Below are positions 1-9,885 of a DNA stretch of 14,664 nucleotides, in pieces. This DNA is from a virus (Duplodnaviria; Heunggongvirae; Uroviricota; Caudoviricetes), in IMG/VR virus record IMGVR_UViG_2703718798_000012, positions 1 through 14,664 of that record. One strand, 5' to 3'. Both the position numbers and the translations under genes were made by a program. Positions within the stretch are counted from its first letter, which is position 1; every line of letters begins with the position of its first letter. Below the pieces are notes generated by a model. It did not search any database and was not told the origin of the DNA. It saw only the letters and a program-made list of their open reading frames with translations.

Positions 1-180
1 GTAACAACCGAACTGATAGTCTGCCAGCCCCGCCATAACAAGCTGGGTCAGTATTAACTGGCAGCGTTCACGTGAAAGGTACGTATTCTGCGCAATCTCC
101 CCGACTGTCGCCGGTTCGGTGACGCTTAATTCATTAAACACCACTCTGGCGGTTTCTGTCATATCCTGCTGTTTCAGCAT
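1..180 (-). CDS. Hypothetical protein, partial (N-terminal 60 codons; continues beyond window start)
   Basis: Reverse complement of 1..180 is open for 60 codons from ATG at 180..178 (MLKQQDMTETARVVFNELSVTEPATVGEIAQNTYLSRERCQLILTQLVMAGLADYQFGCY). Purine-rich GGGAA stretch just upstream. Not in the ORF track because it is unterminated. Confidence 0.4.
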   Translation of the reverse strand, partial: MLKQQDMTETARVVFNELSVTEPATVGEIAQNTYLSRERCQLILTQLVMAGLADYQFGCY

Positions 181-302
181 GTCTTTTTCCCTTTTCCGGT
201 TAACGTGACACACCAATAACTCTTGTCGAAAAAGCCAGCAAGCTGAAAGACCGGTATTCACCGCCACCAGCGCGTTTACTGTACTGGCGTGATTTCAGTC
301 AT

Positions 303-324
303 AAAAAAACCCGCTCGCGGCGGG
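303..324 (-). terminator. Rho-independent terminator downstream of Q gene (tR'-like candidate)
   Basis: Hairpin 310..324 (CCCGC / GCGGG, 5-nt loop) flanked on plus strand by a 7-A run 303..309, which is a 7-U tract after the hairpin on the minus-strand transcript. Lies about 70 nt after the Q stop. Confidence 0.5.
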
Positions 325-395
325 TTTAAGCTGTGTGGCGAAGTAACCACTCTTAACATACTGACATACTTTTTGCGGACCGCACTAATCATTTT

Positions 396-776
396 TTACT
401 TTTTTAGCAGCCAGTCGTCCATCTCCAGTCTTACCCCCAGCACAGACAAACATCCGTCAATAAACCCTTCGGCTATCTGCATCTCAATTCGTATTGCTTT
501 TTCGCTTTTCTTTCTCGTCCTGGCTATCTGTCTTTTTGATATTCGCAACAAATAATGAGCAATGAGAAGCGAATACTCCTCAGGTTTTTTCTGCTTCAGA
601 CGAGCAAGACAGTTTTCAATGATAAGTCCGTCATCATCGCAGCAGGCCGGACGTGGTTTAGTGGCAGATGGTAAAAGTCCTTTGAATCCGGCAGCGATCG
701 GAGAATAGTCCACCCCGGTGTTACCACTTGCCGCCCATGCCCCCCAGCGTTCAAGAACCATCTGAATATCACGCAT
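396..776 (-). CDS. quuD: Late-gene antitermination protein Q (QuuD/YbcQ-type)
   Basis: 126 aa from ATG 776..774 with GGAG 7 nt upstream (ORF track starts 5 codons earlier at a TTG). N-terminus MRDIQMVLERWGAWAA, CCDDD and IRLEMD motifs match my recollection of the E. coli DLP12 Q homolog family; recall, not a search. Confidence 0.75.
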   Translation of the reverse strand: MRDIQMVLERWGAWAASGNTGVDYSPIAAGFKGLLPSATKPRPACCDDDGLIIENCLARLKQKKPEEYSLLIAHYLLRISKRQIARTRKKSEKAIRIEMQIAEGFIDGCLSVLGVRLEMDDWLLKK

Positions 777-793
777 CAACTTTCTCCACAAAA

Positions 794-1789
794 TCAGGAC
801 AGCACACCAATCGCCAGTGCGCGATCGATAAAACGAAATATCAGCTCCAGTTGGGAACCATACTTCTCTTCAAATGCCACAGTATCCGCATGCAGTTCGT
901 CGTGGTGTTTTCTGCACAAAGGCAGCACAAAAAGGTCATGCGCTTTTGTCCCCATACCACCCTGACCGTGACCAATCAGATGATGCGGATCATCGGCTGG
1001 CTTTCCACAACACGCGCACGGCTGCGTCTTAACCCAGCGAGTGTACTTTTCATTAACCCAGCGACGACGTTTCGGGCGTAACATAAAAGACTCCGGCGAC
1101 TCCGGATCCACTTTCAGCGCCAGCACCTTTTTCGCTTTATCCCGGATGATGCTGGTGGCGGGAACCGAAGGCACAAGGTCACTTTCCCGGGTGACAGACG
1201 GCACAACAGGCTTCGGTAATCTCAGTGCCTTACGGGCTGCACTTTCCGGTAAGGCATCCGCCAGGTCATTACGAACCAGCCACCAGCACAGTTCCGGCAT
1301 TGTCACAACGTGACTGTCATCAAAACCAAGATCACGGCGCACAACAGACAACACCCAGCGGGCACAGTTATCCGTTGCCATTGCTTCCAGCCGTTCCGTG
1401 AACTGGTCACGGAGAAGATTGTCACAGTGCCAGCACAGACGGATTGCACCCGGCGCGAGCCGCATTGTGGTCATGTTCTCGCTGTGCCATCCGGAATGAG
1501 GCCACTGACAGCCCTTTTCACGAAGTAACCAGCTTTCAAGACATTCCACCCCACCAGCACGACGAATAACTGCCTCATTGCGGAACACGGCCCGCACAGC
1601 AGGATCATCCGCTAACGGTTGTGATGCCGCCGGAACGGCACCACTGGCAAAAGATGAATAACGTTCCGGCTCAGGCTCCAGCAGGACACGCCCCTGCATA
1701 AACAGGGGCATCAGCTCTGAGCCTGGTCTGAACAGTACGATCCCCATTCGCGGGGCAATTTCAGGAGTCAACAGTGCTCTCACGGTCAC
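794..1789 (-). CDS. Phage nin-region protein with C-terminal CxxC...HH...CxxHH motif (HNH/zinc-finger-like; recalled as DUF968/YdfU-like)
   Basis: 331-codon ORF. C-terminal segment WVKTQPCACCGKPADDPHHLIGHGQGG...LPLCRKHHDELHAD has paired Cys and His typical of HNH-type zinc motifs. Start uncertain: GTG at 1789 or GTG at 1783 with GAGG upstream; the first ATG (1747) lacks an SD. Family assignment is from memory. Confidence 0.6.
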   Translation of the reverse strand: MTVRALLTPEIAPRMGIVLFRPGSELMPLFMQGRVLLEPEPERYSSFASGAVPAASQPLADDPAVRAVFRNEAVIRRAGGVECLESWLLREKGCQWPHSGWHSENMTTMRLAPGAIRLCWHCDNLLRDQFTERLEAMATDNCARWVLSVVRRDLGFDDSHVVTMPELCWWLVRNDLADALPESAARKALRLPKPVVPSVTRESDLVPSVPATSIIRDKAKKVLALKVDPESPESFMLRPKRRRWVNEKYTRWVKTQPCACCGKPADDPHHLIGHGQGGMGTKAHDLFVLPLCRKHHDELHADTVAFEEKYGSQLELIFRFIDRALAIGVLS

Positions 1790-1834
1790 CTCAGCGAACG
1801 ATATTGCATGAACACAGGAGAAAAAATTCAGCCA

Positions 1835-2005
1835 TCACGCAGTAAACTCCTTCACCAGCGTTTCAAACTGGCTTACCTTGCCTTCCAGTTCCGCCACGCA
1901 ATCCACCAGCTCATCCACTGCCTTTTGTGTGCGGTGTTTTGCCTGCAGCAGATCACGAAGCGCCGGAGTAAGCTGCTTGCGGAGCGTATCCTTTGCCACG
2001 CTCAT
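1835..2005 (-). CDS. Small hypothetical protein (56 aa from ATG; 63 aa if GTG at 2026)
   Basis: ORF track 1835..2026. ATG at 2005 has a weak RBS; the upstream GTG at 2026 has AGGAG 10 nt upstream. Charged, helix-prone sequence; no recognisable domain. Confidence 0.4.
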   Translation of the reverse strand: MSVAKDTLRKQLTPALRDLLQAKHRTQKAVDELVDCVAELEGKVSQFETLVKEFTA

Positions 2006-2089
2006 TTTTTTCCATCTGTTCAGCACAACGAAGCATCTCCTGCGCCTGGCGACGAAGTTGTTCCGGTGAAACAGTGGCTGTTCTGTTAT

Positions 2090-3490
2090 TCAAAATAAAC
2101 GCTCCGCTTTACTGCCCGACATGCGGTTATTGCTGTATCTGCGCGGATTGCCCGGCGTCATGGGTGTGGAAAGAACCCGGGCACTCTCCTGGTCCACAGG
2201 CAGAAAATGCCCGTTATGAAAACGCCGGTAAATGGTACCCTGCGTGCCATTACGCTGTTTCGTGATGTTGATTTCTGCTATGCCTCTCGCCTGTGTCTCC
2301 GGGTTGTACACCTCATCCCTGTAAAGCATCAGAATGATGTCTGCATCCGCCTCTATTTCCCCGGAGTTTTTCAGGTCCGAGTTCATGGGGCGTTTATTGG
2401 GTCTGGATTCCACACCGCGGGAGAGCTGGCTCAGCGCTATCAGCGGGAAACCGCCGGATTTTGCCAGGCTTTTAAGTCCCTTTGAGATTTCCCCCACAGC
2501 AAGGTCGTGACGCCCCGTACTACGGGTTTTAATCAGGCCGAGGTAATCGACCACCACCAGCGCCGTTTCCGGGTGTTTCATCCGGTGGTGCCTCGTGGTT
2601 GCACATATCTCATCAATGGTCAGGTTTGCCTGGTCCACCATCCAGATATGACGCCCCGTCATTCGTCCCACGCCCTGTGAGAAACGCGCCCAGTCTTCAT
2701 CTTCAAAACGGGCAACAGACTTAAGACGGGATACCGGCATTCCCCCGGCAGCAGACACCATACGTTCACCAATCTGGATGTTCGCCATCTCCATGGTGAA
2801 CAGAAGCACGCCATGCCCCTGCTCAGTCACCTTGTCGATGATATCCAGCGCAAGTTCGGTTTTCCCCATCGAAGGACGAGCCGCAATGAATACCAGGTCG
2901 CCTGGCTCCATACCGCCCGTTTTTGCGTCCAGTTCATCAATACCGGTCATCAGTGCCCTGGATTTCTCCAGTCCCTGATTGCGGCATTCAACACGGTCGA
3001 CCACTTCCGGAAGGACATCATCAATGTGAACCGGCTGAATGACGCCCTTTCCGGTCGACAGTGAGGTCATCATGTTCTGCGCATCCTTCAGGGCATCCTC
3101 AGCTGCTTCACAGGTATGCGCATCACGTAAATTCTGTAATGCTTCGGTCAGTGTTTTTTCTGCATCGCGCAGTGCGGCATTGCGCCGCAGCGCTGCAACA
3201 TAGTGCTCCAGTGAAGACTTCGCCCAGGTTTTGCGTCCGGTGTCGGTAATCACCGGGGCAAGTTCCGGCATCTCATTGCACAGCAGTACGGGGTCAATGA
3301 CGCCGGATACACGGGCCTGTCTGCAAATTCCCGCGTAAATATCCCTGTACTGACGCACGAAAAAGACATCCGCCGGAAGTGTGGCCAGAATATCCATCAC
3401 TTCCGGATCAGCCCCACGCAGAAAAAACGCGCCAATGACAGCTCCTTCCAGGTCATCATTACGCCACGCCGGATTTGTCGGGTTTGTCAT
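2090..3490 (-). CDS. Replicative DNA helicase, DnaB family
   Basis: 466 aa from ATG 3490..3488, overlapping the upstream stop as ATGA. Walker A-like ARPSMGKTELALDI, and overall length and layout typical of DnaB-type helicases (e.g. phage P22 gene 12 class). Confidence 0.85.
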   Translation of the reverse strand: MTNPTNPAWRNDDLEGAVIGAFFLRGADPEVMDILATLPADVFFVRQYRDIYAGICRQARVSGVIDPVLLCNEMPELAPVITDTGRKTWAKSSLEHYVAALRRNAALRDAEKTLTEALQNLRDAHTCEAAEDALKDAQNMMTSLSTGKGVIQPVHIDDVLPEVVDRVECRNQGLEKSRALMTGIDELDAKTGGMEPGDLVFIAARPSMGKTELALDIIDKVTEQGHGVLLFTMEMANIQIGERMVSAAGGMPVSRLKSVARFEDEDWARFSQGVGRMTGRHIWMVDQANLTIDEICATTRHHRMKHPETALVVVDYLGLIKTRSTGRHDLAVGEISKGLKSLAKSGGFPLIALSQLSRGVESRPNKRPMNSDLKNSGEIEADADIILMLYRDEVYNPETQARGIAEINITKQRNGTQGTIYRRFHNGHFLPVDQESARVLSTPMTPGNPRRYSNNRMSGSKAERLF

Positions 3491-4396: not shown

Positions 4397-5308
4397 TCAC
4401 CAGTTGAAGTTCGTTGAGCCGTAGTCCTGTTCACTGAATCCCGAGATCGGGAGGCTTTTGCCCCGCCCACCTCCGGGGGCTGCTGGCTGTTGCCAGGATT
4501 CCTCGAAATGACGATCGGGTCCAAAGAACGTCGACGCCTGCTTCACGAACTGGGTACCGGTATTTCCAGAGACACGCACCCAGGCGGCATAGCGTTTCAC
4601 ACCGTTGAGCATGGTTTCGGGTGTCACACCTTCCCTGATTCGGGCTTTCCAGGCTTTGAAGGCTGCTGACTTGGAATTACCACCAGCACGTTTGGGATAT
4701 TCCTGCCAGGCCTGTTCAAATTCCGGTGAATATTCCTGTCTGGCAGAACGCGCTGGTGCAGACGCGTCAGCGGATGCGCCAATATCTTGCGGTTCATGTT
4801 TTGAATTTACTGGTGGTTCATGTTTTAAACCTTGTGGATCTGGGGTCAGATTCTGAAGGGTCAAACGCGTATTTTTGCCAGAATCTGAAGGGTCAAACAC
4901 ACCTGAACATACAGATTCTGACGGTTCAGATTTTGAAGGTTCAGAATCTGAAGGGTCACGTAATCCTGAAAGTCTGCGCTGCTGTTTCAGTTCTGCAACC
5001 TTATCCCGCTCAGTTCTGGCAAGCAGCTCAAGCCGATCAGCATTCAGATGATAAAGATTGGACGTATTACGGTTACCTTTGCGGCGTGACTGACGCGTCA
5101 GCCAGCCATCAGCCTCCAGTTCGGAGATTGCCGTTCTGACTGTACTTTCTCCCAACCCAAGCTGTCGGCATATGGTTTCAACACCTGGGTAGCACACCCC
5201 GTCATCATTCGAATAATCCGCCAAGCGCGCCATAATCATCAGTTTTGCACCTTTGATGCCATATGCTGCACATGCATCCCAGACATTACCTAGGATTTTG
5301 CTACTCAT
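4397..5308 (-). CDS. Replication initiator, O-like (N-terminal winged-helix-like domain, repeat-rich linker carrying origin iterons)
   Basis: 303 aa, GGGAGG 6 nt upstream of ATG 5308. Central DPSDSEPSKSEPSE-type peptide repeats are encoded by DNA direct repeats, the arrangement seen in lambda O/ori. Specific family not resolved. Confidence 0.65.
   Translation of the reverse strand: MSSKILGNVWDACAAYGIKGAKLMIMARLADYSNDDGVCYPGVETICRQLGLGESTVRTAISELEADGWLTRQSRRKGNRNTSNLYHLNADRLELLARTERDKVAELKQQRRLSGLRDPSDSEPSKSEPSESVCSGVFDPSDSGKNTRLTLQNLTPDPQGLKHEPPVNSKHEPQDIGASADASAPARSARQEYSPEFEQAWQEYPKRAGGNSKSAAFKAWKARIREGVTPETMLNGVKRYAAWVRVSGNTGTQFVKQASTFFGPDRHFEESWQQPAAPGGGRGKSLPISGFSEQDYGSTNFNW
4846..4960. 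repeat. Origin-like iteron array inside the O-like gene, with adjacent AT-rich segment and a second 12-bp direct repeat (4791..4826)
   Basis: About five copies of TCAGAWTCTGAAGGGTCA-like 18-20-mers (4846..4866, 4878..4898, 4912..4930, 4925..4945, 4941..4960). GGTTCATGTTTT repeated at 4791..4802 and 4815..4826 in an AT-rich stretch 4781..4830. Confidence 0.7.
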
Positions 5309-5529
5309 ACGGCACCTCCCAGACGCTTAAACATTTTTCCGGACTGAAACGCCACCAGCGGATAACTCAGGGTATGAGTACGTCCCTGAACCTGGCAGAC
5401 AACCTTCTGGCTTTCTATATTGACCAGGCAAACCCGCAGAACGTGTCCGTTGCTGGTGGTGAACCACTGCCCCACACGGGGGCAATGGTTGTATCGGTGA
5501 TACAGGAAATTAACGATGTGGCGGATCAT
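5305..5529 (-). CDS. Hypothetical small protein (74 aa), translationally coupled between rha3 and the O-like gene
   Basis: ATG overlaps the upstream stop as ATGA, and its own stop overlaps the O-like ATG as ATGA. No recognisable domain; occupies roughly the cII position. Confidence 0.4.
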   Translation of the reverse strand: MIRHIVNFLYHRYNHCPRVGQWFTTSNGHVLRVCLVNIESQKVVCQVQGRTHTLSYPLVAFQSGKMFKRLGGAV

Positions 5530-6089
5530 GGACGCACCTCCTTGTCAGAACCATTCAGCCTGGAATCAACAAGTGCAGCACCAAAAACAGCATCACCTAC
5601 ACGGTCGTACAGTTTGCTGGCCAGCGGAGATTCAACAGCCTTAAGCATTGGATAAAGCTGGCTTGTCCAGATTTGATGGATTTCACGCAAATGCAGGTAT
5701 ACGCCTCTGGCGTTTCGTGCGACAGCTGACATATCAGACGCATCGGCACCTGATAAACTCTTCTCCATCTGGTTAAAGGCATTGATGTATGCCTCTTTGA
5801 ACCGGGCAGCACGTTTACCAGTGAAGCCCATAGCAAGAAACGCAAAGCCGTCGCGGGTTATTTGATAGCAAGGAAGTTTGCGAGTACCGCCGTTGGGCTG
5901 GCGTACCAAAATTGATGTCTCCGCAAAATTGCGGGCACAAAACTCTGGAGAACAATCCAAAATGCGGATCTTTTTCAGAACATCGTCATGACGTTTAGAG
6001 AAGAAGTCAGCAACAGCCAAAGAAGATGTAACAGCCTGACCATCAACGATGGCAATTTCAGGTTGAGAGAGGGTTGGGAGAGTAGTCAT
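5526..6089 (-). CDS. Phage regulatory protein, Rha family (third tandem paralog)
   Basis: Conservative start ATG 6089..6087 gives 187 aa beginning MTTLPTLSQPEIAIVDGQAV, with the Rha-type motif FSKRHDDVLKKI and ITRDGFAFLAMGFTG. The frame stays open upstream to ATG 6389 (ORF track 5526..6389) and to a conserved ATG at 6230; true start uncertain. Confidence 0.6.
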   Translation of the reverse strand: MTTLPTLSQPEIAIVDGQAVTSSLAVADFFSKRHDDVLKKIRILDCSPEFCARNFAETSILVRQPNGGTRKLPCYQITRDGFAFLAMGFTGKRAARFKEAYINAFNQMEKSLSGADASDMSAVARNARGVYLHLREIHQIWTSQLYPMLKAVESPLASKLYDRVGDAVFGAALVDSRLNGSDKEVRP

Positions 6090-6162
6090 AGTGACAGCCC
6101 CGGTAGTCAGTTTTTTAGAAAACTCACCACATGGGACGCCAATCACAGAGGTGGTGAGACGT

Positions 6163-6243
6163 ACAGGGTTGGCGTTACCGGAGACTACCGAACCCGGCCC
6201 GACCGAAGTCGGCCCTGTACGCCCCACCATAATTTGGGCGTAG
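6163..6243 (-). promoter_or_regulatory. Conserved structured leader element, copy B, upstream of rha3
   Basis: Shares with copy A the 20-mer ACGCC-N2-AATTATGGTGGG and a 3' AACCCTGT block, and has a perfect hairpin CCGAC-UUCG-GUCGG (6199..6212) at the same offset (10 nt after the 12-mer). Confidence 0.5.
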
Positions 6244-6259
6244 TAATGCTCATGACACG

Positions 6260-6281
6260 AAAAAACCGCATGAGCGCGGTT
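6260..6281 (-). terminator. Terminator-like hairpin plus T-tract inside the rha2-rha3 spacer
   Basis: Minus-strand AACCGC-gctcat-GCGGTT followed by TTTT (6-T run in total), about 25 nt upstream of leader copy B. Confidence 0.4.
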
Positions 6282-6385
6282 ATGCTCAGTAATCAATTTC
6301 AGGACGCCAATCCCGGCACCCGTTTTATAAGGTGCCGGAACAGTGTAACGTCCCGGACTTGCAGAATCAATATGCTGGTGGCGCG

Positions 6386-6748
6386 TCATTGATGCACCTC
6401 CCGTTGATTACGACGGAACACGGAGTGACCCTGGACGGCTTCAGCCTCATGGAATGCTTCAATGCAGCTCTCGTAGTACCGCATGGTGCGCAGACTTAAC
6501 CCAAGCTGTAGCATCATCAGACCATCACGGGTGATGTAATAACCACGCACTGAATCGCCATAGGCGCGATAAGTGCCGGGAATAAAGTTGCGGGTGAGAA
6601 ATTCGCGTGAGCAGTTGAGATATTCGATTCGATCGATGATATTCTTATGCATGCGCTTAAAGTGACAGGCGACATACAGGGAGAATATAACGGCTCTGCC
6701 GTTGACGACCTCGATTTTGAGGTATGGATGTGCGGGGATCGTAGCCAT
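6386..6748 (-). CDS. Phage regulatory protein, Rha family (second tandem paralog)
   Basis: Conservative start ATG 6748..6746 with AGGAGG 9 nt upstream gives 120 aa (MATIPAHPYLKIEVVNGRAV...FKRMHKNIIDRI...ITRDGLMML). The frame stays open upstream to ATG 7240 (ORF track 6386..7240) and to a conserved ATG at 6886. Confidence 0.6.
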   Translation of the reverse strand: MATIPAHPYLKIEVVNGRAVIFSLYVACHFKRMHKNIIDRIEYLNCSREFLTRNFIPGTYRAYGDSVRGYYITRDGLMMLQLGLSLRTMRYYESCIEAFHEAEAVQGHSVFRRNQREVHQ

Positions 6749-6818
6749 TAAGGCAGCCTCCTGTAACAGTGGAACAGTTCCACCACCGGAGGTCTCAATC
6801 TCGCTGGTGGCGGACTGG

Positions 6819-6900
6819 ACAGGGTTGAGACTACCGGCGTTACAGGAAACCGGCGAACCTTTCGGTTCCCCTGCCCAGCCCACCATAATTCTGGCGTGCA
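6819..6900 (-). promoter_or_regulatory. Conserved structured leader element, copy A, upstream of rha2
   Basis: Same 20-mer and 3' block as copy B; perfect hairpin GAACC-GAAA-GGUUC (6855..6868) at the identical offset. Different stem and loop sequence from copy B with pairing preserved. Confidence 0.5.
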
Positions 6901-6910
6901 AGGACGCTGA

Positions 6911-6934
6911 CAACAAAAAAGACGCTGGCGCGTC
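6911..6934 (-). terminator. Terminator-like hairpin plus T-tract inside the rha1-rha2 spacer
   Basis: Minus-strand GACGC-gcca-GCGTC followed by TTTTTTGTTG, about 20 nt upstream of leader copy A. Confidence 0.4.
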
Positions 6935-7242
6935 ATTTGTCGCCTGTAACAATTCCGGGGTCTCACTCCCGATAGTGGATTTTGCCACTATATGTAAAGT
7001 GTGCCGCCGGAATTTAATTTTGTCAACGAGGTTAAATATAGAGTCGCTATGTTGGTGGCGCTTCGCACTCAACAAAATCACGACGAAACAACCACAGCGG
7101 GATGAAGCATTCATGCGGATAACCATCACGCAGGTAAATAACCCGCTGTGTTTCAGACTCCCAGCGTATAACGTGGACGCGACGCCCCCTTCCATCACGG
7201 AACCAGCGATTGAGTACTTGCATGTGTTACCTGTGAGCATAA

Positions 7243-7950
7243 TTACACCTGCCAGCCCAGCGCCTGGAACAACCCCATTTTCGGGTGATACCAGCGAGTA
7301 CCTCGTGGTTCTGCTTCACTCGTCATGCGATGAAAAGCAGACATGAAGGGTTCCACAGCAACAATAGCGCGACGCGATAACAATCCATCCGGCGTCATGA
7401 ACTCATGGGTGTCGGTAGGGATCTGATATGCGTTCACCAGATTGCGGCATTTCGCATCTGACATACCCGTTTTCGCCGCCAGCTGACGATAGCCTGCATA
7501 ACCATCGCGTATGGCGCCTCTTTTGATTTGTTCGACAGTTTCGGTAACGTGACTGACTTTTTCTTCTACCCGCTCAAGGCGTTTCTGCTGACGAACAGCT
7601 TCAAGAGCCATCGCGGCAACCATTTCGATTTCGCTCATTGGCTTGCGGATCTGTTCTTCCAGTTCGCGCCAGCGGTCTACCAGACGGGCTGTGAATTCAG
7701 GGCAAAGCTGTGCGACAACAATGATGCTGTCGCGTTTGCCTTGTTCGCCTTCAAACAGATAATGCTCGTGTTGAACTTTAAACCCTAAGTTATTGATTCT
7801 TTCGGAAACCTCAATTTGAGGAGATCGGACAACACCACCTTTAGCTAATGTTTCAATAGTGCGTTTCACATTGTCATGACGCTTACCCACCAGCTCTGCG
7901 ATCTCAACGCTGGTCATGGATGCTTTATCGGTAAAAATTGTTGTATTCAC
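7243..7950 (-). CDS. Phage regulatory protein, Rha family (first tandem paralog, with C-terminal extension)
   Basis: 235 aa. GTG start at 7950 with AGGAG 7 nt upstream, overlapping the cro-like stop (GTGA). N-terminal SVEIAELVGKRHDNVKRTIETL is the characteristic Rha motif (recalled Pfam Phage_pRha pattern). Confidence 0.7.
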   Translation of the reverse strand: MNTTIFTDKASMTSVEIAELVGKRHDNVKRTIETLAKGGVVRSPQIEVSERINNLGFKVQHEHYLFEGEQGKRDSIIVVAQLCPEFTARLVDRWRELEEQIRKPMSEIEMVAAMALEAVRQQKRLERVEEKVSHVTETVEQIKRGAIRDGYAGYRQLAAKTGMSDAKCRNLVNAYQIPTDTHEFMTPDGLLSRRAIVAVEPFMSAFHRMTSEAEPRGTRWYHPKMGLFQALGWQV

Positions 7951-8210
7951 TGTTTATCTCCTTCGCACACTCCATCTTCTGTGTGCGCTAAACTTGGGTG
8001 TGGGAAAAGCTCCGGTAGATCAGGACGAAATTCATACGCCTGGACTTTCCCATCGACCGCCTTAACCAGAGACGGAACAAATTCAGGAGAAATTTTTTTC
8101 TTCCCATTCAGCCAGTCGCAAATTGTTGACTGCGCGCGACCACAACGCCTAGCCAGAGCAATCTGGCTTCCCGCAATATCTACAGCCTTGGCTATACCTT
8201 CATTTTTCAT
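7947..8210 (-). CDS. Cro-like HTH transcriptional regulator
   Basis: 87 aa from ATG 8210..8208 with GGAGG 5 nt upstream (ORF track starts 9 codons earlier at a GTG). HTH segment GSQIALARRCGRAQSTICDWLNGKK; divergent from the CI-like gene across an operator-rich spacer. Confidence 0.7.
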   Translation of the reverse strand: MKNEGIAKAVDIAGSQIALARRCGRAQSTICDWLNGKKKISPEFVPSLVKAVDGKVQAYEFRPDLPELFPHPSLAHTEDGVCEGDKQ

Positions 8211-8235
8211 ATCGACCTCCAACCTGATTCCATTC

Positions 8236-8264
8236 ACTATAGCGATTGATTAAAGCGATTGCAA
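8236..8264 (-). promoter_or_regulatory. PR-like sigma70 promoter for the cro-like operon, with two direct CAATCGCT repeats in the spacer
   Basis: Minus-strand -35 TTGCAA (8264..8259), 17-nt spacer, -10 TATAGT (8241..8236). Spacer contains CAATCGCT twice; the 13-mer CTATAGCGATTGA (8237..8249) recurs at 9152..9164. Confidence 0.5.
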
Positions 8265-8282
8265 TGTACGGGAAAGCGGTTT

Positions 8283-8308
8283 GTGTATATATCGCTAAGG
8301 CGATACAC
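8283..8308. promoter_or_regulatory. Inverted-repeat operator candidate upstream of the CI-like gene (PRM region)
   Basis: Core TATCGC-taag-GCGATA (8290..8305), extended by flanking GTGTAT / ATACAC arms. Lies about 30-50 nt upstream of the CI start; promoter hexamers not confidently placed. Confidence 0.4.
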
Positions 8309-8333
8309 TAAAAGGGCAGAAAAAGGAGGACTT

Positions 8334-9038
8334 ATGAGCTTTTCAGACAGGCTACAGTTAGCTATGACTATCCGCGGATACTCGCAGGGAAAACTGGCCA
8401 GAGAGGTTGGCATGGCTCAATCGAGCGTAAATAAACTGGTTAATGGTGCCACAGGCTCCAGGAAAGTTGTGGAGATAGCCAATACCCTGAACGTGCGCCC
8501 CGAGTGGCTATCGTACGGTGTTGGTCCTATGACCCCAGAAGAAAGCACATCCTGCAATCCGACACCACAGGTATCATATTCCCCGCTGGAAAATGATAAG
8601 GATATTTTTCGTGTGGAAGTCCTGGATATCGCTGCCAGCGCGGGACCAGGAACATTCCTTGTTTCAGATTTTGCAGAAACGGTCCATGCTATAGAATTTT
8701 CACATGACGCCGCAAGACGTCTGTTCTGTAGCAGGCCAGCAAATATCATAAAGATGATAACAGTTGATGGCGACAGCATGGCTCCTACTCTGTGTGCAGG
8801 AGATCAGGTGTTTGTCGACGTATCCGTCAGAAATTTTGAAACTGACGGTATCTATATTTTTATTTTTGGGCACACTTTCCATATCAAACGCCTGCAAATG
8901 CAAGGGATGCAACTTGCTGTTATATCAGACAATCCGGCCTACAAGGAATGGTTTATAAGTGAATCAGCTGAAGAACATCTATTCATAATGGGGAAAGTTC
9001 TCATTCATCAGTCAATCCAGTATAACAGGGTCGGATAA
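8334..9038 (+). CDS. CI-like prophage repressor (N-terminal HTH, C-terminal S24/LexA-type autopeptidase)
   Basis: 234 aa from ATG 8334 with AAAAGGAGGA upstream. HTH LAREVGMAQSSVNKLVNG; Ala-Gly cleavage-type site in AASAGPG; peptidase Ser in VDGDSMAPT and Lys in FHIKRL. Implies RecA/SOS-inducible repressor. Confidence 0.85.
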   Translation: MSFSDRLQLAMTIRGYSQGKLAREVGMAQSSVNKLVNGATGSRKVVEIANTLNVRPEWLSYGVGPMTPEESTSCNPTPQVSYSPLENDKDIFRVEVLDIAASAGPGTFLVSDFAETVHAIEFSHDAARRLFCSRPANIIKMITVDGDSMAPTLCAGDQVFVDVSVRNFETDGIYIFIFGHTFHIKRLQMQGMQLAVISDNPAYKEWFISESAEEHLFIMGKVLIHQSIQYNRVG

Positions 9039-9051
9039 GTCAACATCACCG

Positions 9052-9090
9052 GCAGCTGTATTGCGCAGCTGCTCTACTTTCCTGTATCTC
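9052..9090 (+). terminator. Possible terminator after the CI-like gene
   Basis: 7-bp stem GCAGCUG / CAGCUGC (9052..9058, 9066..9072) with 7-nt loop, followed by a pyrimidine-rich tail UCUACUUUCCUGUAUCUC rather than a clean U-tract. Confidence 0.3.
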
Positions 9091-9151
9091 AACTCCCTAC
9101 GTATCGTCTCATTTCTCTCATAATCTGTTCTTTGCTGCCCAAAATGCATAG

Positions 9152-9189
9152 CTATAGCGATTGACATAACCAAACGCTTTGGCTATTGT
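9152..9189 (+). promoter_or_regulatory. PL-like promoter with operator for the plus-strand accessory/early-left operon
   Basis: -35 TTGACA (9161..9166), 17-nt spacer, -10 TATTGT (9184..9189). Operator 13-mer CTATAGCGATTGA (9152..9164) identical to the PR copy and overlapping the -35; includes the palindrome GCTATAGC. Confidence 0.45.
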
Positions 9190-9214: not shown

Positions 9215-9286
9215 ATGAAGCATGCAGTTAAGGTGATGGATGAAATTCAGCACAAATACAAGAAAGCGGCTCGCTGCTTGGAATGA
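9215..9286 (+). CDS. Leader micro-ORF (23 aa) coupled to the tandem-HTH gene
   Basis: AGGAGG 9204..9209, 5-nt spacer, ATG 9215; encodes MKHAVKVMDEIQHKYKKAARCLE. Its TGA overlaps the ATG of the next gene (ATGA), which has no SD of its own. Confidence 0.3.
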   Translation: MKHAVKVMDEIQHKYKKAARCLE

Positions 9287-9885
9287 TCTATTCCTACATG
9301 TCAGAAAACGGAGCAGAAAGTGAGAGGGTTTATAATGCAATCAGATGCCTGATGCGTTCCCTGCAAAAAACAGAAGAAACTGCATCAATTTTTGCAGAAA
9401 AACTATGTGAGGCAAAAGCTATGGTTTCGCATGGTCACTTTTTTGGAAAAATCCGTGCCCAACGTGAAGCCTGCGGCTTGACGACCACCGAACTTGCCAA
9501 ACTGCTTGATCTCGATGAAGAGATCATCCTGCAATGGGAGAGCGGAGAGTTCGAACCGACCATCAGCATGCTTATCCCCCTGGCAAACGTCATTGGGTGC
9601 GATCCGCTTTCTTTGCTGGATGAAAAAGATAGCGCGTCTGTTATTCGCGTAAATGCGCCTGAAGTCTACGTGGAAAGTATTGGCGCACGCATCAAAAGCG
9701 CACGTAAAAAACTGGGCTTAACGGAAGCTGATCTTGCCCGCATGATTAATACCTATAGCGACCCCATAAACGACTGGGAATGCGGCATCTGTGAAGTTCC
9801 TGCTGATCAGATAGTGCCACTGGCCAGTGCGCTTAATTGTGACCTGATGTGGTTGTTAACGGGAAAATCAGAAGCAAAGGAGTAG
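9283..9885 (+). CDS. Tandem HTH (two XRE-type domains) DNA-binding protein
   Basis: 200 aa. Two canonical HTH_XRE-like segments (GKIRAQREACGLTTTELAKLLDLDEEIILQWESGEFEP and GARIKSARKKLGLTEADLARMINTYSDPINDWECG). First gene of the PL-like operon. Confidence 0.7.
   Translation: MIYSYMSENGAESERVYNAIRCLMRSLQKTEETASIFAEKLCEAKAMVSHGHFFGKIRAQREACGLTTTELAKLLDLDEEIILQWESGEFEPTISMLIPLANVIGCDPLSLLDEKDSASVIRVNAPEVYVESIGARIKSARKKLGLTEADLARMINTYSDPINDWECGICEVPADQIVPLASALNCDLMWLLTGKSEAKE

What the first reader, a model, noticed from the sequence alone, without database searches (positions are those of the whole stretch)
8211..9166. Immunity switch: shared 13-bp operator at divergent PR-like and PL-like promoters, plus a separate palindrome before the repressor gene
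CTATAGCGATTGA occurs at 8237..8249 (overlapping the cro-promoter -10) and at 9152..9164 (overlapping the TTGACA -35 of the plus-strand promoter). The PR spacer has two direct CAATCGCT repeats, and a distinct TATCGC-N4-GCGATA palindrome sits upstream of the CI-like gene. This predicts one repressor binding both operators around a core AGCGAT half-site, with a different site used for autoregulation. The repressor has a LexA-type cleavage module, so the prophage should be SOS-inducible.
Basis: seen in the sequence. Interest (0 to 1): 0.45.

Follow-up and report, generated by a model that had tools for sequence, protein, structure and literature searches.

The report
Prophage CI/Cro switch with 14-bp operators
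This is the on/off switch of a lambda-like E. coli prophage, an ordinary kind of element, but all its repressor sites, including the supposedly "separate" palindrome, belong to one 14-bp family (ATCGC-N4-GCGAT), and this lineage seems to have lost the usual middle site.

Summary
The sequence facts are correct. CTATAGCGATTGA occurs exactly at 8237-8249 and 9152-9164, and the palindrome lies at 8290-8305. A divergent Cro-like gene and a 234-aa HTH+S24 CI gene flank the first region.

Relatives carrying the same CI DNA-binding domain all have dyad operators ATCGC-N4-GCGAT in fixed registers with PR, PRM and PL. A matrix built only from those relatives ranks four window sites as the top four of 14,645 positions:
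- OR1, 8233-8246.
- OL2, 9148-9161.

The shared 13-mer is the last base of the left half-site, the centre, the right half-site and the flank of OR1 and OL2. The second CAATCGCT copy is an orphan half-site.

The OR2 expected from the closest relatives (8264-8277) is absent. cI is nevertheless under purifying selection (dN/dS 0.11).

SOS inducibility is plausible: Ala103-Gly104, Ser148 and Lys185 are present. It is untested.

This is a routine lambdoid immunity region: a new member of a known kind, with an uncharacterised operator family and an unusual two-site OR.

The parts
7947..8210 (-). cro-like gene (87 aa, YdaS-type HTH), first gene of the PR operon
   Evidence: PF15943 hit at E=1e-15, 57.7 bits against a 30-bit cutoff. 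PHROG 35, transcriptional repressor. The helix QSTICDWLNGKK is conserved in all relatives that carry ATCGC operators, and differs in L017 and HK639, which have other operators.
8233..8246 (.). OR1: TTCAC TATA GCGAT. It covers the PR -10; its centre TATA forms the first four bases of TATAGT.
   Evidence: 19.3 bits, rank 2 of 14,645 with a matrix built from relatives only. It sits at the same position and register as OR1 of the type-B relatives L013, L015, L016, L006 and L009. It is invariant in six copies of this prophage lineage.
8236..8264 (-). PR: -35 TTGCAA (8264-8259), 17-bp spacer, -10 TATAGT (8241-8236)
   Evidence: Consensus scan, 9 of 12 matches. The same register relative to OR1 holds in five type-B relatives, with TATAGT or TAAAAT at the -10. 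No transcription start has been mapped.
8253..8262 (+). Orphan half-site AAGCGATTGC.
   Evidence: Half-site score 12.0 bits, fourth best of about 29,000. No partner half: 2.8 bits as a full site at 8246 and -6.5 bits at 8252. The core is invariant in six lineage copies, with variable bases at 8250, 8251 and 8261. It is absent from type-B relatives. Function unknown.
8264..8280 (.). Degenerate remnant of OR2: CA-ATGTA-CGGGAAA-GCGGT, with the right half displaced by 3 bp
   Evidence: Type-B relatives have OR2 at 30-31 bp from OR1 and 27 bp from OR3. The same 58-bp OR1-OR3 distance holds in the window, yet 8264-8277 scores -36.8 bits. Four of the 13 variable OR positions in the lineage (8267, 8268, 8271, 8272) fall here.
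8281..8309 (+). Proposed PRM: -35 TTGTGT (8281-8286), 17-bp spacer holding OR3, -10 TACACT (8304-8309)
   Evidence: At fixed offsets from OR3, all 14 loci examined show TTGnnn-17-TAnnnT. The window version is weak (7 of 12 matches) and was not found by the stricter scan. Inferred, not mapped.
8291..8304 (.). OR3: ATCGC TAAG GCGAT, a perfect core.
   Evidence: 20.5 bits, rank 1 of 14,645. A zero- or one-mismatch site lies at the same distance from the cI start in every relative. Invariant in six lineage copies.
8334..9038 (+). cI repressor, 234 aa: 434-like HTH N-terminal domain plus S24 autocleavage domain
   Evidence: Pfam HTH_3 and Peptidase_S24. The N-terminal domain matches the 434 repressor in the PDB at E=3e-5. 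The motifs ASA/G at 101-104, GDSM (Ser148) and IKRL (Lys185) are present. dN/dS is 0.11 against the O178 copy.
9051..9073 (+). Hairpin after cI, a possible terminator separating cI from PL
   Evidence: 9-bp stem, -15 kcal/mol, z=-2.9. The T-tract is poor, so the terminator scan missed it. Relatives also carry a hairpin after cI (sequences).
9148..9161 (.). OL2: ATAGC TATA GCGAT. Its last T is the first base of the PL -35.
   Evidence: 18.2 bits, rank 3. The same register, GCGAT|TGAnn, holds in 12 other loci: 11 relatives and the O178 lineage copy.
9161..9189 (+). PL: TTGACA-17-TATTGT
   Evidence: 10 of 12 matches, the best hit of the scan. Hexamers are conserved at fixed offsets from OL2 in all 13 loci tabulated: the window, the O178 copy and 11 relatives.
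9173..9186 (.). OL1: AACGC TTTG GCTAT. It covers the PL spacer and the first three bases of the -10.
   Evidence: 13.5 bits, rank 4; the next best site in the window scores 9.2. It lies 25 bp from OL2, as in all 11 relatives with an OL tabulated. The only lineage polymorphisms inside it (9178 T/C, 9181 G/A) lie in the 4-bp centre and are alternatives the family matrix tolerates.
9215..9885 (+). First gene of the PL operon (double HTH_3, PHROG 'CII-like regulator'), frameshifted in this window
   Evidence: It is 224 codons in E. coli 89-3156. The window lacks one G near 9247 that is present in four other copies. PHROG 4836 hit at E=1e-52.

Best explanation
The region is the immunity switch of a lambdoid E. 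coli prophage integrated next to yecE/yecN.

One 14-bp dyad-symmetric operator family, ATCGC-N4-GCGAT (extended consensus aATCGC-TwwA-GCGATt), is read by the 434-like HTH domain of the CI repressor. By the lambdoid paradigm it is also read by the YdaS-type Cro. The window has four such sites:
- OR1 (8233-8246) sits on the -10 of PR. CI bound there blocks cro and the downstream anti-repressor and replication genes.
- OR3 (8291-8304, the perfect palindrome) sits in the spacer of a weak cI promoter, PRM. Occupancy by excess CI or by Cro shuts off cI.
- OL2 (9148-9161) covers the -35 of PL.
- OL1 (9173-9186) covers the spacer and -10 of PL, so CI silences the leftward operon that runs to xis and int.

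The shared 13-mer is the last base of the left half-site, the centre, the right half-site and the flank of OR1 and OL2. The OR2 present in all relatives is missing here; only a degenerate remnant and an orphan half-site remain. CI carries an intact Ala-Gly / Ser / Lys self-cleavage module, so RecA-stimulated cleavage after DNA damage is the likely induction route.

Shown: the sites, their ranking, their conserved registers and their covariation with the DNA-binding domains. Inferred: binding itself, the promoter starts, the direction of regulation and SOS induction.
For: - Context. The region is 99.4% identical to a prophage in E. coli 89-3156 that runs from a Q antiterminator through a DnaB-type helicase, cro and cI to xis and int, next to yecN and cmoA.
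- Domains. They are as stated.
- Relatives. Twelve loci with the CI helix GMAQSSVNKL, plus Klebsiella phage Mulock, all carry ATCGC-N4-GCGAT sites. OR spacings are 19/27 (type A) or 30-31/27 (type B). OL spacings are (21)/25.
- Matrix. A matrix from 51 distinct sites of relatives only puts 8291, 8233, 9148 and 9173 at ranks 1-4 of 14,645 (20.5, 19.3, 18.2 and 13.5 bits; the next is 9.2). Shuffled windows reach those scores 0-0.08 times.
- Promoter registers. The hexamers of PRM, PL and PR sit at fixed offsets from OR3, OL2 and OR1 across 14, 13 and 7 loci respectively.
- Natural domain swaps. L009 has the same N-terminal domain with a different C-terminal domain and keeps ATCGC sites. L018 and HK639 share a C-terminal domain but differ in the HTH, and have ATCGC versus ATAAC-N5-GTTAT sites. 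L017 has another HTH and ATAG..CTAT sites.
- Lineage polymorphism. Variable positions avoid the operator half-sites.
- Selection. cI dN/dS is 0.11, and 0.05 in the N-terminal domain.
Against: - There are no binding, footprint or transcript data for this or any member of this operator family. No paper in the searchable library contains these operator sequences.
- The training sites are themselves predictions.
- CI and Cro always covary together, so comparison cannot say which protein reads the sites.
- PRM is weak (7 of 12 matches) and was not found by the consensus scan.
- Absence of OR2 departs from the paradigm and leaves PRM activation and cooperative PR repression unexplained.
- The prophage shows signs of decay: a frameshift at about 9247 in the window, and a frameshifted xis in 89-3156.
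- No sequenced phage isolate carries this immunity region.
Confidence: 0.8

Rival explanations
1. The operator is the 13-mer, or an AGCGAT half-site used in direct-repeat fashion at PR and PL. The TATCGC-N4-GCGATA palindrome is a different site, used only for autoregulation.
For: The 13-mer is exact at both promoters. TAWAGCGATTG occurs three times in the same orientation, at 8238, 8251 and 9153. The palindrome is indeed placed where it could autoregulate cI.
Against: The palindrome has the same half-sites and the same 4-bp spacing as OR1 and OL2, and is the top hit of one common matrix. In 13 relatives every promoter-associated site is an inverted repeat of ATCGC/GCGAT. OR1 and OL2 have recognisable left halves, TTCAC and ATAGC, variants that recur in relatives.
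Confidence: 0.08
2. The orphan half-site is functional. Together with OR1 and/or the conserved AAAGCGGTT at 8273-8281, 21 bp away, the direct repeat substitutes for the lost OR2. This could work through an extra CI subunit or dimer recruited cooperatively, or through another regulator such as Cro or the double-HTH protein. The lineage would then run a non-canonical OR.
For: The half-site score of 12.0 bits is the fourth best of about 29,000. About three comparable chance hits occur elsewhere in the window, so a hit inside the 123-bp OR has a probability of roughly 0.03. AAAGCGATT is invariant in six lineage copies, while 8250, 8251 and 8261 vary. It overlaps the PR -35. cI is under purifying selection despite the lack of OR2.
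Against: The full-site scores are 2.8 and -6.5 bits. A dimer placed there would be centred 13 bp from OR1 and would share a base with its core. Difference-free runs of 16-18 bp are not significant at the local 9.5% divergence. A similar orphan half-site in type-A relatives is lost in three of six lineages: L010, L018 and Mulock.
Confidence: 0.2
3. The switch belongs to a decaying cryptic prophage. Loss of OR2 and the weak PRM are degenerative, and the element only retains enough repression to silence toxic early genes. This overlaps with the best explanation and concerns function only.
For: The window has a frameshift in the first PL gene. In 89-3156, xis is frameshifted and a DUF4222 gene is truncated. 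No record in the phage collection covers more than 8% of the 1.4-kb region. The variable bases cluster in the OR2 remnant.
Against: cI and cro are intact and under purifying selection (dN/dS 0.11 and 0.15). The four operators and three promoters are conserved. The region is present in 20 of 5,426 complete E. coli genomes as two diverged haplotype groups that share the OR2-less layout.
Confidence: 0.3
4. The 13-mer repeat is a chance coincidence with no regulatory meaning.
For: Exact 13-mer repeats arise 2.2 times per shuffled window, and several unrelated ones exist in the real window.
Against: Both copies lie in the two intergenic regions flanking cI (2e-4 of position pairs). They lie on promoter hexamers. 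They match an operator matrix derived from other genomes.
Confidence: 0.01

Closest known systems
Phage 434 immunity region (434 cI/cro, 14-bp operators ACAA-N6-TTGT)
   Same: The CI N-terminal domain aligns with the 434 repressor DNA-binding domain (PDB 2r63 and 1per, E=3e-5 to 1e-4). The operators are 14-bp dyads with specific outer bases and a variable, mostly A/T centre. The layout is divergent cI/cro with OR and OL. Central A-tracts raise 434 and P22 repressor affinity by indirect readout (PMC3317979), which may explain the TATA/TTTA centres of OR1 and OL2.
   Different: The half-site sequence differs (ATCGC rather than ACAA), and the centre is 4 bp rather than 6. The recognition helix is AQSSVNKL rather than QQSIEQLE. 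Cro is of the YdaS type. The window has two, not three, full sites in OR and two in OL.
Phage lambda CI/Cro switch (OR1-3, OL1-3, PR/PRM/PL, RecA-stimulated CI cleavage)
   Same: The gene order matches: cro, OR, cI, terminator, OL/PL, and on to xis and int. One operator lies in the PRM spacer at about -18.5, as lambda OR3 does. The S24 domain has Ala-Gly, Ser and Lys.
   Different: The operator length and sequence differ. cI has a Shine-Dalgarno leader (AAGGAGG at 8323-8329) and is not leaderless. No N-like gene is evident after PL. No OR2 is placed to activate PRM. The PR operon begins with cro followed by Ant/Rha anti-repressor-like genes.
Shiga-toxin phage 933W switch (Koudelka laboratory)
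   Same: It is a lambdoid switch that departs from the lambda paradigm. 933W lacks OL3 and its repressor shows no cooperative binding to adjacent sites (PMC3317979). It is a precedent for reduced operator sets in STEC-associated prophages. The window also has only OL1 and OL2.
   Different: 933W keeps three OR sites and has unrelated operator sequences. In the window it is OR2 that is missing.
CP-933P / Rac YdaS-YdaT modules (PaaR2 or RacR with YdaS as the Cro analogue)
   Same: The window's Cro belongs to the same Pfam family, YdaS. In CP-933P, YdaS binds the intergenic operators and represses PRM and PR like Cro (PMC8630535).
   Different: The repressor there is PaaR2 or RacR, which the paper describes as lacking sequence similarity to lambda CI. 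The repeats have the consensus GTTTAGTAA. The window has no YdaT.
Klebsiella phage Mulock and related Klebsiella prophage-derived phages (ST11-VIM1phi8.1 and others)
   Same: These are the closest sequenced phages. CI is 54% identical overall and 71% in the N-terminal domain, with the same helix GMAQSSVNKL. The operators are the same ATCGC-N4-GCGAT, with OR spacings of 19 and 27 bp and OL spacings of 21 and 25 bp.
   Different: They have three full sites at each of OR and OL (type-A layout). PR sits between OR1 and OR2. The records annotate no operators.

Membership tests
Lambdoid CI/Cro immunity switch | Divergently transcribed repressor and cro genes separated by a short operator/promoter region, with a second operator/promoter (OL/PL) beyond cI | tested here: met
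   cro is at 8210-7947 (minus strand) and cI at 8334-9038 (plus strand). OR is 123 bp. A 176-bp region carrying PL follows cI. The prophage context runs Q, DnaB-type helicase, cro, cI, xis, int.
Lambdoid CI/Cro immunity switch | One family of dyad-symmetric operators repeated at OR and OL and overlapping PR, PRM and PL | tested here: met
   Four ATCGC-N4-GCGAT sites rank 1-4 in the window with a matrix from relatives. Their registers with the promoter hexamers are conserved in 7-14 loci.
Lambdoid CI/Cro immunity switch | Three operators in OR, with OR2 adjacent to the PRM -35 | tested here: not met
   The window has only OR1 and OR3. The expected OR2 position scores -36.8 bits, and nothing else in OR exceeds 2.8 bits. 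Five type-B relatives each have three sites of at least 17 bits.
Lambdoid CI/Cro immunity switch | Repressor and Cro bind the same operators with opposite preference, giving bistability | not testable with these tools
   Only covariation of both HTH proteins with the operator motif is available.
LexA/CI-type S24 self-cleaving repressor | Peptidase_S24 domain with a catalytic Ser-Lys dyad and an Ala-Gly (or Cys-Gly) scissile bond in the linker | tested here: met
   PF00717 scores 63.4 bits against a 23.3-bit cutoff. The GDSM motif gives Ser148, IKRL gives Lys185, and ASAG gives Ala103-Gly104. All three are conserved in the relatives listed, except that L009 (different C-terminal domain) has GQSM and VKTL. 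A BLASTP alignment places KRL opposite LexA VKRL.
LexA/CI-type S24 self-cleaving repressor | RecA*-stimulated autocleavage leading to SOS induction | not testable with these tools
   Inferred from the motifs only.
434-type (HTH_3/XRE) repressor DNA-binding domain | Sequence similarity to the 434 repressor N-terminal domain across helices 1-5 | tested here: met
   phmmer against the PDB aligns residues 2-62 with 434 repressor residues 1-62, E=3.3e-5. HTH_3 scores 32.8 bits against a 23-bit cutoff.
YdaS-type Cro | Match to PF15943 above the gathering score, with the gene placed as first gene of the rightward operon | tested here: met
   57.7 bits against a 30-bit cutoff. The position is shown.

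The most novel reading that the evidence does not exclude
This E. coli prophage lineage stably runs a lambdoid switch with only two full operators in OR (OR1 and OR3) and two in OL. It has lost the OR2 that relatives use next to PRM. Cooperative PR repression and cI maintenance would then rely on something else. Candidates are the conserved orphan half-sites at 8253-8262 and 8273-8281, OL-OR looping over about 0.9 kb, or unactivated PRM expression. That would make it a naturally occurring minimal CI/Cro switch.
Probability: 0.2. Interest if true: 0.5.

Novelty: new member of a known kind. Interest (0 to 1): 0.3.

Why it matters
The analysis assigns a concrete, testable operator consensus (ATCGC-N4-GCGAT) and a promoter/operator map to an immunity group. 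That group is widespread in Enterobacteriaceae prophages and in Klebsiella phages such as Mulock, and I found no published operator description for it.

It also supplies natural domain-swap pairs that tie specificity to the 434-like N-terminal domain.

The OR2-less layout in a lineage found in STEC O103, O145 and O178 genomes is a small natural experiment. It asks how much of the lambda three-operator logic is dispensable. Otherwise this is a textbook type of element.

Tried and rejected
- **8252-8265 as OR2.** I considered AAAGC GATT GCAAT, which lies 19 bp from OR1 as in type-A relatives. I rejected it: the matrix score is -6.5 bits, and the closest relatives are type B with OR2 at 30-31 bp.
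- **CCAAACGCTTTGG in the PL spacer as a separate operator.** Rejected. The better register is OL1, AACGC TTTG GCTAT, homologous to OL1 of all relatives. Two bases of that palindrome vary among near-identical copies.
- **A 13-bp tandem duplication as the source of extra OR length.** Rejected. The OR1-OR3 distance of 58 bp equals that of type-B relatives (31+27), so no net insertion is needed.
- **An OL3 at 21 bp upstream of OL2 (9127).** None is present, -44 bits. Type-B relatives also have only two OL sites.
- **Phage collection search.** It found no record with this immunity region; best coverage was 8%.
- **Literature search for the operator strings.** It found nothing.
- It gave only a weak alignment. 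The S24 assignment therefore rests on Pfam and on the motifs.
- **Conservation of the orphan half-site across lineage copies.** It is not statistically decisive at the local divergence.
Full report
**Observation**

- CTATAGCGATTGA is exact at 8237-8249 and 9152-9164.
- CAATCGCT (minus strand) occurs at 8241-8248 and 8254-8261.
- TATCGC-TAAG-GCGATA lies at 8290-8305.
- A consensus scan finds TTGCAA-17-TATAGT on the minus strand (8264-8236) and TTGACA-17-TATTGT on the plus strand (9161-9189).

An exact 13-mer repeat is not in itself beyond chance. Shuffled windows carry 2.2 on average, and the real window has unrelated ones. What is improbable is that the two copies sit one in each intergenic region flanking cI; only 2e-4 of position pairs do so.

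**Context**

The region is 99.4% identical to a prophage of E. coli 89-3156. It is present in 20 of 5,426 complete E. coli genomes, including O103:H2, O145 and O178 strains. In 89-3156 the element runs from a Q antiterminator through a DnaB-type helicase, Rha/Ash/BRO genes, cro and cI to xis and int, next to a DUF72 gene, yecN and cmoA. It is a lambdoid prophage.

The genes are:
- cro, 8210-7947: 87 aa, of the YdaS type (PF15943, 57.7 bits).
- cI, 8334-9038: 234 aa, HTH_3 plus Peptidase_S24 (63.4 bits).
- The gene after cro, which is Ant-like (PHROG 63).
- The first gene after PL, a double-HTH 'CII-like regulator'.

No record in the phage collection covers more than 8% of the 1.4-kb region.

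**What the operators are**

A genome scan and exact-protein look-ups recovered relatives of CI from Apirhabdus, Escherichia, Enterobacter, Citrobacter, Erwinia, Leclercia, Scandinavium and Salmonella, and from metagenomes. Klebsiella phage Mulock was added. Overall identity is 37-71%, but the recognition helix region GMAQSSVNKL is the same.

In every one of these loci the cro-cI spacer, and wherever an OL region was identified the region after cI, carry inverted repeats ATCGC-N4-GCGAT. Two OR layouts occur:
- Type A: spacings of 19 and 27 bp.
- Type B: spacings of 30-31 and 27 bp.

OL has spacings of (21 and) 25 bp.

I built a matrix from 51 distinct 20-mers taken only from these relatives. 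It ranks four window positions as the top four of 14,645:

| Site | Core coordinates | Score (bits) |
|---|---|---|
| OR3 | 8291-8304 | 20.5 |
| OR1 | 8233-8246 | 19.3 |
| OL2 | 9148-9161 | 18.2 |
| OL1 | 9173-9186 | 13.5 |

The next best site scores 9.2 bits. Shuffled windows reach these four scores 0 to 0.08 times.

Three conclusions follow.
OR1 (TTCAC TATA GCGAT) and OL2 (ATAGC TATA GCGAT) are also members.
- The shared 13-mer is the last base of the left half-site, the TATA centre, the right half-site and the TGA flank of those two sites.

**Registers with promoters**

Hexamers sit at fixed offsets from the operators.
- From OR3, all 14 loci show TTGnnn, a 17-bp spacer holding OR3, then TAnnnT. 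In the window this is TTGTGT at 8281-8286 and TACACT at 8304-8309. I take this to be PRM. It places OR3 at about -18.5, the position of lambda OR3 (my knowledge of lambda).
- From OL2, all 13 loci show TTGAnn sharing its first T with the operator. They also show a -10, TATnnT, that shares TAT with OL1.
- In type-B loci the centre of OR1 supplies the first four bases of the PR -10.

None of the starts is mapped.

**Who binds**

The CI N-terminal domain aligns with the 434 repressor DNA-binding domain (E=3e-5). That fits a 14-bp operator with a less specific centre.

Natural domain swaps tie the motif to the immunity cassette rather than to the C-terminal domain.
- L009 combines the same N-terminal domain with a different C-terminal domain and keeps ATCGC sites.
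- L018 and HK639 share a near-identical C-terminal domain but differ in the HTH. L018 has ATCGC sites and HK639 has ATAAC-N5-GTTAT sites.
- L017 has yet another HTH and ATAG..CTAT sites.

The Cro helix QSTICDWLNGKK covaries in the same way. Comparison therefore cannot separate CI from Cro. By the lambdoid paradigm, and by the YdaS work on CP-933P (PMC8630535), both are expected to bind.

**The missing OR2 and the second CAATCGCT copy**

The closest relatives (L013, L015 and L016, 66-71% identity) are type B, with an OR1-OR3 distance of 58 bp. The window has the same distance. Each type-B relative has three sites of at least 17 bits. The window has only two, and the expected OR2 position at 8264-8277 scores -36.8 bits. 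What remains there is CA-ATGTA-CGGGAAA-GCGGT, with the right half displaced by 3 bp.

I compared six copies of this prophage lineage, comprising four haplotypes. Four of the 13 variable OR positions fall in this remnant. None falls in the OR1 or OR3 cores.

The second CAATCGCT copy (AAGCGATTGC, 8253-8262) is a good half-site: 12.0 bits, fourth best of about 29,000. It has no partner half, scoring 2.8 or -6.5 bits as a full site. A dimer bound there would be centred only 13 bp from OR1. Its core is invariant in the lineage while 8250, 8251 and 8261 vary. However, difference-free runs of this length are not significant at the local 9.5% divergence. A comparable orphan half-site in type-A relatives has been lost in three of six lineages. 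I therefore treat it as of unknown function, possibly vestigial.

cI remains under purifying selection: dN/dS is 0.11 overall and 0.05 in the N-terminal domain, where dS is 0.38. The two-site OR has evidently been maintained.

**Induction**

CI has ASA/G (Ala103-Gly104), GDSM (Ser148) and IKRL (Lys185). These are conserved in the relatives, apart from L009, whose different C-terminal domain carries GQSM and VKTL. SOS-dependent self-cleavage is therefore plausible but untested.

A 9-bp hairpin at 9051-9073 (-15 kcal/mol, z=-2.9) may terminate the cI transcript before PL.

**Comparison and novelty**

- The switch works like the 434 and lambda switches and meets most membership features. It fails the three-operator OR feature.
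- 933W is a precedent for reduced operator sets: it lacks OL3 and shows no adjacent-site cooperativity (PMC3317979).
- No paper in the searchable library contains these operator sequences. The records of the closest phages annotate no operators.

It is a new member of a known kind. The operator consensus and the OR2-less layout are the only new elements.

**Verdict**

Interest is modest.

Noticed in passing
window 6147-6234 and 6803-6890 (C4); 6259-6335 and 6915-6991 (isrK); all minus strand: Rfam finds two tandem copies of a C4 antisense RNA plus isrK sRNA pair, all above gathering scores. They lie inside the 5' parts of the two Ash+Rha ORFs, 5526-6389 and 6386-7240. This resembles a duplicated P1 immI / Gifsy isrK anti-repressor control module: a second layer of immunity control in the PR operon.
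   Followed up: partly
window 7243-7950 (minus strand): The gene immediately after cro is Ant-like (PHROG 63 'anti-repressor Ant', E=2e-47; Pfam Rha). The PR operon therefore carries anti-repressor-like genes, which could act on other prophages' repressors after derepression.
   Followed up: no
window about 9247, in gene 9215-9885: The window lacks one G (GAAATTCAGC versus GAAATTGCAGC in four other copies). This frameshifts the double-HTH first gene of the PL operon at codon 11. It is either a pseudogene in this strain or a sequencing error.
   Followed up: yes
window 4852-4958, inside gene 4397-5308 (minus strand, HTH_36): Exact and near-exact repeats of (C)AGAATCTGAAGGGTCAAAC occur at 4852, 4879-4886 and 4942, together with a 15-bp tandem array at 4912-4958. 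They lie inside the replication-initiator-like gene and are probably origin iterons, as in lambda O.
   Followed up: partly
window 8222-8588, compared with L012 (E. coli O178:H19): Divergence between the two haplotype groups is concentrated in OR and the cI N-terminal domain: 35 differences in 367 bp, dS 0.38. The cI C-terminal domain is nearly identical, dS 0.035. This is a mosaic boundary inside cI.
   Followed up: partly
L002-L007, L010, L018, L019 (type A); L006, L009, L013, L015, L016 (type B): The operator family comes in two OR layouts. In type A, PR sits between OR1 and OR2 (spacings 19 and 27 bp) and OL has three sites. In type B, OR1 lies on the PR -10 (spacings 30-31 and 27 bp) and OL has two sites.
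   Followed up: partly
L001 13951-14204 and 13791-13895 (E. coli 89-3156 copy): RefSeq marks the excisionase as frameshifted and a DUF4222 gene as truncated in the near-identical prophage. This hints that the lineage is decaying.
   Followed up: no
L011 (phage HK639) 2385-2494; L017 1894-2000: CI proteins with similar C-terminal domains but different HTH helices have different repeated dyads in OR: ATAAC-N5-GTTAT in HK639 and AATAGTTAA..CTAT in L017. These serve as useful negative controls for the ATCGC assignment.
   Followed up: partly
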